A stretch of 12,174 nt of DNA, from the IMG/VR virus record IMGVR_UViG_2562617113_000010. One strand, written 5' to 3'. Made by a program: the position numbers and the translations under genes. This DNA comes from a virus (taxonomy: Duplodnaviria; Heunggongvirae; Uroviricota; Caudoviricetes). Shown here piece after piece: positions 7,501 to 8,094 of this stretch. The notes under the pieces are model-generated. The model was not told the DNA's origin and did not search any database. It saw only the letters and a list, made by a program, of their open reading frames with translations. Numbering within the stretch: position 1 is the stretch's first letter; every line of letters starts with the position of its first letter.

Positions 7501-7665
7501 TTTTTCCAGGCTGTTACCCGCCTGATTGAGTTGCTTTAATGCGTCACGGGAGTTTCTGATTGCGCCAGCCAGCTCTTTCGAACTGGCCTGTGCAGCACGG
7601 AATGGGCGGGTGAGTTTGTCAACCGCATTAAGAATGACCTGCAGGCGCAGGTTGTTATCACTCAT
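4588..7665 (-). CDS. T: Tail tape measure protein
   Basis: 1025-aa ORF in the gpT position between E/E' and U. Charged, Q/R/K-rich N-terminal region consistent with coiled coil (inferred from composition), a central Ala/Leu/Gly-rich region with degenerate repeats of roughly 20 aa (PLAxLRxGL...), and a Gly-rich C-terminal motif GGYIPRGQFGIVGENGPEIV typical of tape measure proteins. Confidence 0.9.
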   Translation of the reverse strand: MSDNNLRLQVILNAVDKLTRPFRAAQASSKELAGAIRNSRDALKQLNQAGNSLEKFRKLQADNKKLGDRLNYARQKANLLSFELEAMEQPSQRHLVALGRQTLAVQRLEEQQKYLQKQTALVRAELYRAGISAKDDAGATARLARETSRYNQELSKQEARLKRLGEAQRRMNAARASYARSLEVRDRIAGAGATTTAAGLAMGAPVMAAVKSYTSMEDAMKGVAKQVNGLRDDNGNRTARFYEMQDAIKAASEQLPMENGAVDFAALVEGGARMNVANPDDSWEDQKRDLLAFASTAAKAATAFELPADELSESLGKIAQLYKIPTRNIEQLGDALNYLDDNAMSKGADIIDVMQRLGGVADRLDYRKAAALGSTFLTLGAAPEVAASAANAMVRELSIATMQSKSFFEGMNLLKLNPEVIEKQMTKDAMGTIQRVLEKVNALPQDKRLSAMTMLFGKEFGDDAAKLANNLPELQRQLKLTAGNDALGSMQKESDINKDSLSAQWLLVKTGAQNTFSSLGETLRQPLMDILYTVKSITGALRRWVEANPELTGTLMKVAAVVAAVTVGLGTLAVALAAVLGPLAVIRLGFSVLGIKTLPSVTAAVTRTSSALSWLAGAPLALLRRGLASSGNAAGLLTAPLSSLRRTALLTGNVLKTVAGAPVALLRSGLSGLRAVAVMFMNPLAVLRGGLAAAGTVLRVLASGPLAMLRVALYAVSGLLGALLSPIGLVVTALAGVALVVWKYWQPITAFLGGVVEGFKAAAGPISAAFEPLKPVFQWIGDKVQALWGWFTDLLTPVKSTSAELQSAAAMGRRFGEALAEGLNMVMHPLDSLKSGVSWLLEKLGIVSKEAAKAKLPESVTRQQPATVNADGKVMMPSGDFPSWGYGFAGMYDSGGYIPRGQFGIVGENGPEIVNGPANVTSRRNTAALAAVVAGMMGVAAAPAELPPLHPLALPAKGGEAMVSRAATVPPIYRIEAPTQIIIQTQPGQSAQDIAREVARQLDERERRLKAKARSNYSDQGGYDA

Positions 7666-8094
7666 CGTTGGCCCCGCTTCTCTGAATCGCTTTATACCGC
7701 CATTCCAGCACTTCGGTCAGCGGCATAACGTCAGTAACGGATGGCGGCCAGTGAAAAATGGTGGCGATATCTGCCACCAGATCGTCAACCGTCAGGCTGT
7801 CGGTAAACCGGCAAGCACCGACTTCTTCAACAAAAAAGTGACAACCTCAACCGACATGGCAGTGAGATCTGCCGGGTCCATCTCTGCAATTTCCTGTGCG
7901 GTCAGTGCCGGGCTGGAGATGCGGGGGATCACGGTAATCATCGCGTTCACATCCATATCCATAATGGCCTGCAGGCGTGTACCGCGCAGCGCACCAGACT
8001 GCGGTTTACGCAGCACAATTTCGGTGATTTCCGTTTTACCGCGCTTGATAGGAGTATCCAGTTGAATGGTCTTTTCAGTCTGCTTATCACTCAT
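7658..8094 (-). CDS. E: Tail assembly chaperone E+E', product of a programmed -1 ribosomal frameshift
   Basis: Slippery heptamer T_TTT_TTG (minus strand, plus coordinates 7831-7837) lies in the E frame. The -1 frame is then open for 57 codons (VEEVGACRFTDSLTVDDLVADIATIFHWPPS...GANDE) and ends at a TGA (7658-7660) that overlaps the T start codon. Predicted fusion is about 145 aa, against 142 aa recalled for P2 E+E'. Confidence 0.6.
7792..8094 (-). CDS. E: Tail assembly chaperone E
   Basis: 100-aa ORF in the gpE position, with ATG at 8092-8094 and stop at 7792-7794. Contains the slippery heptamer T_TTT_TTG near its 3' end. Confidence 0.8.
   Translation of the reverse strand: MSDKQTEKTIQLDTPIKRGKTEITEIVLRKPQSGALRGTRLQAIMDMDVNAMITVIPRISSPALTAQEIAEMDPADLTAMSVEVVTFLLKKSVLAGLPTA

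What the first reader, a model, noticed from the sequence alone, without database searches (positions are those of the whole stretch)
7658..7837. Conserved E/E' programmed -1 frameshift with E' stop overlapping the T start codon
The heptamer T_TTT_TTG sits in frame in E, and the -1 frame is then open for 57 codons, ending in a TGA that overlaps the ATG of T. This is the P2-type counterpart of lambda G/GT. It supports the E and T gene calls and argues that the tail assembly module is intact.
Basis: partly seen in the sequence, partly recalled or inferred. Interest (0 to 1): 0.35.

Follow-up and report, generated by a model that had tools for sequence, protein, structure and literature searches.

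The report
P2-type E/E' tail-chaperone frameshift site
This is the well-known programmed -1 ribosomal frameshift by which P2-like phages make two tail-assembly chaperones (E and E+E') from one start codon, present here in an E. coli prophage; it is real and conserved but ordinary.

Summary
On the minus strand, gene E (8094..7792, 100 aa) contains T_TTT_TTG in frame at 7837..7831. The -1 frame is then open for 57 codons to a TGA at 7660..7658.

One correction: that TGA lies 2 nt after the ATG of T (7665..7663). The two ORFs overlap by 8 nt (ATGAGTGA); the stop and start codons themselves do not overlap.

The -1 extension is a full-length match to Pfam Phage_P2_GpE (1e-18). The reconstructed 145-aa fusion aligns without gaps across the junction to P2 E+E' (50% identity, 1e-51).

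In 349 of 350 related loci (265 viral or annotated, 7 distant phages, 78 bacterial species) E' is in the -1 frame behind an in-frame slippery heptamer. Sequence variation switches its three-base periodicity to the -1 frame after the E stop. I found no conserved downstream RNA structure.

The feature is already known (P2 RefSeq annotation; Christie 2002, Xu 2004, cited through held papers). Automated annotation nevertheless splits it into E plus a 39-aa "GpE family" ORF.

The parts
7792..8094 (-). Gene E (tail assembly chaperone, 100 aa, zero-frame product; stop TGA 7794..7792)
   Evidence: ORF list and translation. Pfam Phage_TAC_7 at 1.4e-18 and PHROG 103 'tail protein' at 3.7e-44. The identical protein is named 'phage tail assembly protein' on 707 contigs.
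7831..7837 (-). Slippery heptamer T_TTT_TTG, in frame with E (codons ACT-TTT-TTG = T86 F87 L88)
   Evidence: Read directly from the sequence. Same position in 80 close relatives: 76 TTTTTTG, 4 TTTTTTA. Only the 7th base varies within the clade. Homologous to the P2 site at NC_001895 19678-19684.
7658..7831 (-). E' : -1 frame extension, 57 codons plus TGA. The E+E' product is 145 aa: E residues 1-88 followed by VEEVGACRF...SGANDE.
   Evidence: Translation. Pfam Phage_P2_GpE at 1.1e-18, model positions 1-37 of 37; PHROG 1756 at 5e-23. Gapless 50% identity to P2-type E+E' across the junction. Variation periodicity switches to the -1 frame.
7795..7830 (-). Dual-coding zone: the last 12 sense codons of E (LKKSVLAGLPTA) overlap the first codons of E'
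   Evidence: 6 variable sites in 36 nt among 68 distinct clade sequences, against 103 in 257 nt of E-only sequence and 45 in about 131 nt of E'-only sequence. This is consistent with constraint in two frames.
7658..7665 (-). ATGAGTGA: 8-nt overlap of the E' end (TGA 7660..7658) with the T start (ATG 7665..7663)
   Evidence: Same geometry in P2 (ATGAGTAA) and in lambda T/H (ATGGCTGA). The 8-nt overlap is the commonest arrangement among relatives.
4588..7665 (-). Gene T, tail tape measure protein (1025 aa), same frame as E
   Evidence: ORF. Pfam PhageMin_Tail at 2.1e-18. RefSeq annotation of the near-identical E. coli A38 locus.
8149..8664 (-). Tail tube gene (FII homologue) immediately upstream of E
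   Evidence: Pfam Phage_tube at 8.8e-60. This gives the canonical order tube - chaperone - frameshift extension - tape measure.
7658..7777 (-). The 39-aa GTG-start 'GpE family phage tail protein' CDS as automated pipelines call it. I regard it as an annotation artefact covering the C-terminal two thirds of E'.
   Evidence: RefSeq annotation of E. coli A38, and of Cartapus and p13P477T-2. The 39-aa product is on 994 contigs, while the 145-aa fusion is absent from about 15 billion proteins.
7799..7824 (-). Weak alternative hairpins 6-8 nt downstream of the heptamer (AAGUCGGU-GCUU-GCCGGUUU, or GUCGGU...ACCGAC). Not credited as a stimulator.
   Evidence: -4.1 and -7.8 kcal/mol. 10-15% of same-length windows in the operon fold at least as well. 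The 91-nt downstream segment has z = -1.8. No consensus structure across lineages. No Rfam match.

Best explanation
This is a programmed -1 ribosomal frameshift of the P2 E/E+E' type.

Mechanism. Ribosomes start at the E ATG (8094). Most terminate at the TGA at 7794..7792 and make the 100-aa chaperone E. A minority slip when tRNA-Phe sits on UUU in the P site and tRNA-Leu on UUG in the A site. Both tRNAs move back one base on U_UUU_UUG (7837..7831) and re-pair with UUU_UUU. Translation then continues for 57 codons in the -1 frame to the UGA at 7660..7658. The product is a 145-aa E+E' protein that shares its first 88 residues with E.

Rate. No dedicated RNA stimulator is evident, so the heptamer alone probably sets the rate. 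A review reports that P2-type sites shift 2-3 times more often than lambda G-T, whose products have a 30:1 ratio.

Function. By analogy with lambda G/GT, E and the E part of E+E' coat the tape-measure protein T, and the E' domain recruits the tail tube subunit. Both chaperones then leave the finished tail.

Status of each step.
- Shown here: the anatomy, homology of both parts to P2 E and E', conservation of the frame relationship and of the slippery site, and purifying selection in the -1 frame.
- Inferred: that slippage actually occurs in this prophage, its frequency, and the chaperone roles.
For: Anatomy.

Homology:
- E matches Pfam Phage_TAC_7 (1.4e-18). The -1 extension matches Phage_P2_GpE (1.1e-18, full model).
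- The reconstructed fusion aligns to P2-type E+E' over 139 aa, 50% identical, with no gap at the junction (VVTFLVEEVGA against VVGFLVAELGA), E = 1e-51.
- My reconstruction of the P2-type proteins gives 91 aa and 142 aa, as published (PMC3091744).
- P2 RefSeq annotates E+E' as a joined CDS, '-1 frameshift; essential tail protein', beside TTTTTTG, with the same 8-nt overlap on T.

Conservation:
- 265 of 265 viral and annotated loci (138 distinct fusion proteins) have E' in the -1 frame with an in-frame T_TTT_TTN heptamer.
- 77 of 78 loci from different bacterial species do the same.
- All 7 distant phages keep the -1 arrangement but use other canonical heptamers: G_GGA_AAG, A_AAT_TTT, C_CCT_TTC, T_TTT_TTC. 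These fit tandem tRNA slippage.

Selection: variable sites sit at codon position 3 of frame 0 in E (71 of 103) and at position 3 of the -1 frame after the E stop (25 of 45; chi-square 11.2, p about 0.004 by my own arithmetic). The P2 clade shows the same pattern (36 of 39, then 14 of 22).

Literature:
- PMC3091744 and PMC3931495, citing Christie 2002 and Xu 2004: P2 shifts -1 at TTTTTTG, and E' lacks a ribosome binding site and overlaps T.
- PMC5009743: the efficiency in P2 and related phages is 2-3 fold that of lambda, and the review describes the G/GT chaperone model.
Against: - There is no experimental evidence for this prophage. Nothing here measures slippage or detects the fusion protein.
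- A GTG at 7777 could in principle start a stand-alone 39-aa E', and that is how pipelines annotate it.
- No 3' stimulatory structure was found, so the efficiency cannot be predicted.
- Whether the junction residue is L-V (canonical model) or something else is model-dependent. A join at the P2 RefSeq's annotated frameshift site, as I reconstructed it, implies L-F.
- One homologue (L308, Ca. Symbiopectobacterium) has E and E' fused in one frame. This shows the arrangement can be lost, probably in a decaying prophage.
Confidence: 0.9

Rival explanations
1. E' is a separate small gene. Ribosomes initiate independently at GTG 7777 and make a 39-aa 'GpE family' protein. No frameshift is involved.
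For: This is how RefSeq/PGAP and several phage records annotate it. The 39-aa product is recorded on 994 contigs. Many lineages have ATG or GTG at the equivalent codon, just before the ADIA motif.
Against: - Protein-level conservation in the -1 frame starts at the heptamer, 18 codons upstream of the GTG. VEEVGACRFTDSLTVDDL aligns with P2 VAELGAVTFPKNLSVDDL and has 7 invariant columns among three genera.
- The equivalent codon is not a start codon in Mannheimia (I), Vibrio MAR (W), RsoM1USA (A) or 2F_1 (I).
- No Shine-Dalgarno sequence precedes GTG 7777.
- The -1 relation and the in-frame heptamer are kept in 349 of 350 loci, which independent initiation would not require.
- The literature states that P2 E' lacks a ribosome binding site (PMC3931495).
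Confidence: 0.04
2. The fusion is made by transcriptional slippage. RNA polymerase adds one extra U in the U6 run, and standard translation of the edited mRNA reads into E'.
For: The site is a homopolymer run (T6, and T7 in Smp131-like phages). One inserted nucleotide would give the same protein. Nothing here excludes a minor contribution.
Against: - By general knowledge of known cases, productive RNA polymerase slippage usually needs runs of about 8-9 or more.
- Related lineages keep the -1 arrangement with non-homopolymeric heptamers (G_GGA_AAG, A_AAT_TTT, C_CCT_TTC). These fit tandem tRNA re-pairing and do not fit polymerase stuttering.
- The run is always phased as X_XXY_YYZ in the E frame. 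That phasing matters only for ribosomes.
Confidence: 0.05
3. Chance: a fortuitous T-run and an accidentally open -1 frame in a non-coding gap between E and T.
For: TTTTTTG is not over-represented in the window. About 9% of positions have 57 or more open -1 codons.
Against: Full-length Pfam and PHROG matches of the -1 product. Third-position variation pattern in the -1 frame. Conservation across Gamma- and Betaproteobacterial prophages.
Confidence: 0.01

Closest known systems
Bacteriophage P2 genes E and E+E' (FETUD operon; NC_001895 19430..19857; Christie et al. 2002, cited via PMC3091744 and PMC3931495)
   Same: - Position between tube gene FII and tape-measure gene T.
- T_TTT_TTG at the homologous Phe-Leu codons.
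- 57-codon -1 extension.
- E' end overlaps the T start by 8 nt (ATGAGTAA against ATGAGTGA).
- 50% identity over the whole fusion with no gaps.
   Different: - E is 100 aa here against 91, and its zero-frame tail after the slip site is 12 codons against 6.
- T is 1025 aa against 815.
- Different genus: nearest relatives are Elveevirus phages 4LV2017 and Cartapus, at 97-98% nt identity.
- No experimental data exist for this one.
Coliphage 186 orf51/orf52 (gene H) and the annotated frameshift chaperones of Smp131 and Burkholderia phage Menos/KL3
   Same: Same family, same -1 arrangement and T6/T7 slippery run. Their records note or join the frameshift product.
   Different: 44% or lower identity. 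Different lengths of the N-terminus and of the zero-frame tail. Smp131 uses T7 and has an extra small ORF before T.
Phage lambda G / GT
   Same: Same logic: chaperone gene between the major tail gene and the tape-measure gene, -1 slip near the 3' end, and a minor fusion product. The fusion ORF also ends 8 nt into the tape-measure gene (ATGGCTGA) (PMC5009743).
   Different: - Slippery site is G_GGA_AAG, not T_TTT_TTG.
- No detectable sequence or profile similarity (hhalign probability 1.5%; different Pfam family).
- Non-contractile tail.
- Reported efficiency is lower (PMC5009743).
E. coli dnaX -1 frameshift
   Same: -1 tandem slippage on an X_XXY_YYZ heptamer in the same host translation system.
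   Different: By my knowledge of the literature, dnaX relies on a 5' Shine-Dalgarno-like element about 10 nt upstream and a strong 3' stem-loop. Here there is no significant 3' structure, and the only SD-like motif (GAGGT) is 6 nt upstream.

Membership tests
P2-type E / E+E' frameshifted tail assembly chaperone pair (Peduoviridae) | Located between the tail tube gene and the tape-measure gene | tested here: met
   Tube gene 8664..8149 (Phage_tube, 8.8e-60), E 8094..7792, T 7665..4588 (PhageMin_Tail).
P2-type E / E+E' frameshifted tail assembly chaperone pair (Peduoviridae) | Zero-frame product homologous to P2 gpE | tested here: met
   Pfam Phage_TAC_7 at 1.4e-18. Aligns to P2-type E within the fusion alignment.
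P2-type E / E+E' frameshifted tail assembly chaperone pair (Peduoviridae) | ORF in the -1 frame overlapping the 3' end of E and homologous to P2 E' | tested here: met
   57 codons. Pfam Phage_P2_GpE at 1.1e-18, full model. -1 offset in 349 of 350 homologous loci.
P2-type E / E+E' frameshifted tail assembly chaperone pair (Peduoviridae) | In-frame slippery heptamer T_TTT_TTG at the codon homologous to the P2 site | tested here: met
   7837..7831. Gapless alignment places it on the same F-L codons as P2.
P2-type E / E+E' frameshifted tail assembly chaperone pair (Peduoviridae) | -1 frame conserved as protein from the slip site onward, i.e. upstream of any possible own start | tested here: met
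   Residues 89-106 are conserved with P2 and 186: V89, G93, F97, L101, D104, D105 and L106 are invariant. The variation pattern supports it.
P2-type E / E+E' frameshifted tail assembly chaperone pair (Peduoviridae) | End of E' overlaps the start of T | tested here: met
   8-nt overlap ATGAGTGA, as in P2.
P2-type E / E+E' frameshifted tail assembly chaperone pair (Peduoviridae) | A fusion protein is actually produced, and E' is essential for tail assembly | not testable with these tools
   Needs protein detection and genetics. Known for P2 only, through its RefSeq note and cited papers (PMC3091744).
Lambda gpG/gpGT protein family (as sequence homologue) | Detectable sequence or profile similarity to lambda gpG | tested here: not met
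   hhalign of the E alignment against lambda G gives probability 1.5%. The Pfam scan finds only Phage_TAC_7. The resemblance is one of organisation.
Stimulator-dependent -1 frameshift sites (dnaX or IS911 type) | Stable RNA structure 5-9 nt downstream of the heptamer, conserved among relatives | tested here: not met
   The local hairpins are -4 to -13.5 kcal/mol, and 10-15% of operon windows are equally stable. RNAalifold over 9 lineages predicts 0 pairs. Rfam finds nothing. The literature reports none for P2, KS5, KS14 or KL3 (PMC3091744).
Transcriptional slippage sites | Long homopolymer run as the only requirement, with codon phase irrelevant | tested here: not met
   The run is only 6 nt. 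Its phase is fixed in all loci. Distant relatives use non-homopolymeric heptamers.

The most novel reading that the evidence does not exclude
The conserved 8-nt overlap (ATGAGTGA here, ATGAGTAA in P2, ATGGCTGA for lambda T/H) may mean that translation of the tape-measure gene is partly coupled to termination of the frameshifted ribosomes. The frameshift rate would then set both the E : E+E' ratio and the dose of tape-measure protein relative to E+E'.

An enterobacterial-clade SD-like GAGGT/AGGTG motif 5-6 nt upstream of the heptamer could tune that rate.

Neither idea is tested here. The overlap is the commonest arrangement but is not universal. The SD-like motif is absent from the Burkholderia and Stenotrophomonas clades.
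Probability: 0.15. Interest if true: 0.35.

Novelty: already known. Interest (0 to 1): 0.12.

Why it matters
Biologically it adds little. The E/E+E' frameshift is a textbook conserved feature of P2-like phages, and this prophage has the orthologous site.

Its practical value is for annotation. This exact locus and hundreds of identical ones are annotated as two separate genes: E, and a 39-aa GTG-start 'GpE family' protein. The 145-aa product that is most likely made is absent from a 15-billion-protein collection.

Recognising the site fixes the gene model. It also explains the apparent 126-nt gap between E and T.

It does not show that the prophage can build tails. The sheath gene is frameshifted in this window.

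Tried and rejected
1. **Downstream stimulatory structure.** I folded 91-nt and 231-nt segments, ranked local windows against the whole operon, compared clades, ran RNAalifold over 9 lineages and searched Rfam. Nothing was conserved or unusually stable.

2. **Terminator-like hairpin inside E'.** It lies at 7779..7759 and is followed by T5. The T-run is broken by synonymous changes within the clade, and other clades fold differently. I do not credit it.

3. **Second candidate frameshift, G_GGG_GGA in T.** It lies at 4606..4600, five codons before the T stop, with the -1 frame being U's frame. It sits 9 nt upstream of the U ATG and is best read as U's Shine-Dalgarno sequence. Two of 80 relatives break the heptamer. 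Rejected.

4. **Antisense ORF 7526..8065 (+), 179 aa.** No Pfam or NCBIfam match, and the variation pattern fits the minus-strand frames. I treat it as a shadow ORF.

5. **Homology to lambda G.** Rejected by hhalign.

6. **Solved structures.** No PDB relative by sequence. NCBIfam has no model for the fusion.

7. **Original Christie 2002 paper.** PMC135442 is not held, so I cite it only through papers that quote it.

9. **Structure prediction.** Not run. It accepts only window sequences or database-search hits, and it would not change the verdict.
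Full report
**Observation**

The relevant genes lie on the minus strand.
- Gene E runs from ATG 8094 to TGA 7794..7792 and encodes 100 aa.
- Read 5'->3' on that strand, the sequence ...GTC ACT TTT TTG TTG AAG... places TTTTTTG at 7837..7831. It is phased as T_TTT_TTG in the E frame, on codons T86, F87 and L88.
- From 7831 the -1 frame is open for 57 sense codons (VEEVGACRFTDSLTVDDLVADIATIFHWPPSVTDVMPLTEVLEWRYKAIQRSGANDE). It ends at TGA 7660..7658.

One detail is wrong. The ATG of T is at 7665..7663, so the E' stop lies 2 nt downstream of it (ATGAGTGA). The ORFs overlap by 8 nt, but the stop codon does not overlap the ATG. The TGA contained in ATGA is in the third frame. 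T (7665..4588, 1025 aa) is in the same frame as E.

**Is it more than chance?**

The heptamer alone is not remarkable: 3 copies in the window against 3.6 expected. Across 2,915 codons of the window's genes there are 7 in-frame X_XXY_YYZ heptamers. Only 8.7% of positions have 57 or more open -1 codons, and the median is 11. The joint configuration is thus uncommon, but that alone is not decisive. Homology and conservation settle the matter.

**What it is**

- E matches Pfam Phage_TAC_7 ('tail assembly chaperone proteins, E, or 41 or 14') at 1.4e-18.
- The -1 extension matches Pfam Phage_P2_GpE over the entire model at 1.1e-18.
- The neighbours are the tube protein (Phage_tube, 8.8e-60), tape measure (PhageMin_Tail), gpU and gpD. 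PHROGs agrees.
- The reconstructed fusion is E residues 1-88 plus 57 residues, 145 aa in all. It aligns to the P2-type E+E' over 139 residues at 50% identity with no gap across the junction (VVTFLVEEVGA against VVGFLVAELGA), E = 1e-51.
- The same reconstruction applied to P2-type sequences gives 91-aa E and 142-aa E+E'. These are the published sizes (PMC3091744).
- The P2 reference genome annotates E+E' as a joined CDS, '-1 frameshift; essential tail protein'. The frameshift site is marked next to TTTTTTG, and the E+E' end overlaps T by 8 nt (ATGAGTAA).

**Source of the window**

The window is an E. coli chromosomal prophage. It is identical to strain A38 (NZ_CP028738.1) except for three homopolymer indels. 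The nearest phages are Klebsiella phage 4LV2017 and Escherichia phage Cartapus (Elveevirus, Peduoviridae), at 97-98% nt identity.

**Conservation**

I collected three sets of related loci and determined the frames of the E-like and E'-like parts in each by tblastn.
- 265 loci from IMG/VR and annotated phages, covering four clades and 138 distinct fusion proteins. All 265 have E' in the -1 frame and an in-frame T_TTT_TTN heptamer in the zone where both frames are open.
- 80 close relatives of the window, a subset of the above. 76 have TTTTTTG and 4 have TTTTTTA, all at the same position, with a 57-codon extension ending in TGA except for one locus cut short by the contig end.
- 78 loci from different bacterial species, Gamma- and Betaproteobacteria. 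77 have the same arrangement.
- The one exception is a Candidatus Symbiopectobacterium contig. There an upstream indel has fused E and E' into one frame. This is probably decay.
- 7 more distant phages. All keep the -1 arrangement. Three use other canonical heptamers: G_GGA_AAG in Mannheimia, A_AAT_TTT in Citrobacter phage Shae, and C_CCT_TTC in Klebsiella ST16-OXA48phi5.4.

Homologues keep a slippery site, and the -1 extension is conserved as protein.

**Selection**

The test used 68 distinct clade sequences.

| Region | Variable sites | At codon position 3 of |
|---|---|---|
| E, window clade | 103 | frame 0: 71 |
| After the E stop, window clade | 45 | -1 frame: 25 |
| E, P2 clade | 39 | frame 0: 36 |
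| After the E stop, P2 clade | 22 | -1 frame: 14 |

- For the window clade after the E stop, the split by -1 frame position is 13/7/25. Chi-square is 11.2, p about 0.004 by my own arithmetic.
- The 36-nt dual-coding stretch has only 6 variable sites.
- Only the 7th base of the heptamer varies.

**Mechanism**

The best-supported mechanism is tandem tRNA slippage on U_UUU_UUG, with tRNA-Phe in the P site and tRNA-Leu in the A site.

No stimulatory RNA was found.
- The 91 nt downstream fold with z = -1.8.
- The local hairpins 6-8 nt downstream are worth -4 to -13.5 kcal/mol, and 10-15% of equally long windows in the operon are as stable.
- Each clade folds differently.
- RNAalifold over nine lineages predicts no pair.
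- Rfam has no match.
- This agrees with the literature for P2 and the Burkholderia phages (PMC3091744).

An SD-like GAGGT (7848..7844) lies 6 nt upstream. A 5-mer of that kind occurs at spacing 5-6 in about 45% of 207 distinct sequences, against about 2% background. It coincides with the conserved (K/E)-V-V codons and is absent from the Burkholderia and Stenotrophomonas clades. I leave it as unexplained.

The chaperone roles of E and E+E' are inferred from lambda G/GT (PMC5009743). The same review states that the efficiency in P2 and related phages is 2-3 fold higher than lambda's.

**Rival explanations**

- *Independent initiation at GTG 7777.* This is the way PGAP and several phage records annotate the locus. 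It does not explain -1 frame conservation of the 18 codons upstream. It does not explain the absence of a start codon at that position in four lineages, nor the universal heptamer.
- *Transcriptional slippage.* It is disfavoured by the short run, by the strict codon phase, and by the non-homopolymeric heptamers in relatives.
- *Chance.* It is excluded by the homology and conservation results.

**Comparison with known systems**

The locus meets every computationally testable defining feature of the P2 E/E+E' pair.

With lambda G/GT it shares organisation. This includes an 8-nt overlap of the fusion ORF with the tape-measure start (ATGGCTGA). It shares no detectable sequence similarity with lambda G (hhalign probability 1.5%). 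It works like lambda G/GT but is not a sequence-family member.

**Novelty**

The feature is already known. The only new point is practical. The exact 100-aa E and the 39-aa 'GpE family' ORF are on 707 and 994 contigs respectively. The 145-aa fusion, with either junction residue, is absent from about 15 billion proteins. The locus is therefore systematically mis-annotated.

**The 'intact module' corollary**

This does not hold for the window as given.
- Relative to Cartapus, and to the otherwise identical A38 chromosome, the sheath gene lacks one T at window position 8892 (CCTTC becomes CCTC on the + strand). It stops after 343 of 390 codons.
- All 58 clade relatives with a recognisable motif have the intact version.
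- Conversely, gene D is intact here but 'frameshifted' in the A38 RefSeq record because of a C-run difference at 3258.
- All three differences are homopolymer-length changes. They may be sequencing errors, and this needs re-sequencing.

Noticed in passing
window 8892 (sheath gene 9845..8674, minus strand): There is a 1-nt deletion in a short homopolymer (GAAGG becomes GAGG on the coding strand) relative to phage Cartapus and to E. coli A38. The sheath ORF stops at 8816..8814 after 343 aa instead of 390, and the rest lies in another frame (8817..8674). All 58 close relatives in which the motif was matched lack the deletion. It is either a pseudogene or a sequencing error.
   Followed up: yes
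window 85, about 3258 and 8892, against NZ_CP028738.1 3164824-3176998 (L273): The window equals the E. coli A38 chromosome except for three homopolymer-length differences. There is an extra A in grxA at 85. There is one C fewer at 3258, which makes gene D intact here, whereas RefSeq marks D as 'frameshifted'. There is one T fewer at 8892, which breaks the sheath gene. The pattern is typical of long-read assembly errors.
   Followed up: yes
window 7658..7777 (-): Automated annotation (RefSeq A38, p13P477T-2, Cartapus) calls the C-terminal 39 codons of E' as a separate GTG-start 'GpE family phage tail protein'. The Pfam family Phage_P2_GpE covers only this part. The 145-aa fusion is not in a 15-billion-protein collection, while the two fragments are on 707 and 994 contigs.
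   Followed up: yes
window 7779..7759 plus T-run to about 7754 (-): An intrinsic-terminator-like hairpin (UGGUGGC-AGAUAUC-GCCACCA, then UUUUU; -12.5 kcal/mol) lies 12 nt after the E stop, inside E'. It encodes the conserved LVADIATIF motif. The same 5' arm could instead pair with GCCGCCA further downstream, as in P2. The T-run is broken by synonymous changes in many clade members, so a terminator role is doubtful.
   Followed up: partly
window 7848..7844 (-): A Shine-Dalgarno-like GAGGT lies 6 nt upstream of the heptamer. Such a 5-mer sits at spacing 5-6 in about 45% of 207 distinct homologous sequences (background about 2% per position). It coincides with the conserved (K/E)-V-V codons and is absent from the Burkholderia and Stenotrophomonas clades. 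Whether it modulates slippage is unknown.
   Followed up: partly
window 4606..4600 (-), end of T: An in-frame G_GGG_GGA heptamer lies five codons before the T stop, with the -1 frame being U's frame (164 codons open). It sits 9 nt upstream of the U ATG (T and U overlap as ATGA) and is best explained as U's ribosome binding site. Two of 80 relatives break the heptamer.
   Followed up: yes
L308 (Candidatus Symbiopectobacterium sp., NZ_PEHF01000066.1) about 882-1317: This is the only homologue of 350 in which E and E' are fused in one reading frame (…MIAIARFFDAEITAG…). The cause is an indel just upstream of the T-run. It would make only the long product. It is probably a decaying prophage in a symbiont genome.
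   Followed up: partly
L436 (lambda) 1543-1550; window 7665..7658; L275 (P2) 1051-1058: The frameshift-product ORF ends exactly 8 nt into the tape-measure gene in lambda (ATGGCTGA), in P2 (ATGAGTAA) and here (ATGAGTGA), although the proteins are not detectably related. This suggests possible translational coupling. The 8-nt overlap is the commonest arrangement among relatives but is not universal.
   Followed up: partly
window 8137..8120 (-), between the tube gene and E: An all-G+C 7-bp hairpin (GGCGCGG-AAUG-CCGCGCC) without a T-run lies in the 54-nt spacer. Phage 186 annotates a 'partial terminator tI' in the equivalent spacer. It might lower expression of E-T-U-D relative to sheath and tube.
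   Followed up: no
window 2544..2622 (+): RybB sRNA (Rfam RF00110, 105 bits) lies between ybjL and the prophage's ogr gene (2700..2917, minus strand). The prophage end is therefore within about 80 nt of the rybB 3' end, which may be the attachment site.
   Followed up: no
window 9988..12174: A Gin/Cin-type serine invertase (9988..10554, minus strand; Resolvase at 2e-53) lies next to two opposed sets of tail-fibre C-terminal (gp53-like) and tail-fibre assembly genes. This looks like an invertible host-range segment. A scan for inverted repeats found no clear crossover sites inside the window.
   Followed up: partly
window 8094..8084 and 7665..7655 (-): E and T begin with the same 11 nucleotides (ATGAGTGATAA; MSDK... 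and MSDN...). In T this string supplies the E' stop codon. The reason for the identity in E is unknown and it may be coincidence.
   Followed up: no
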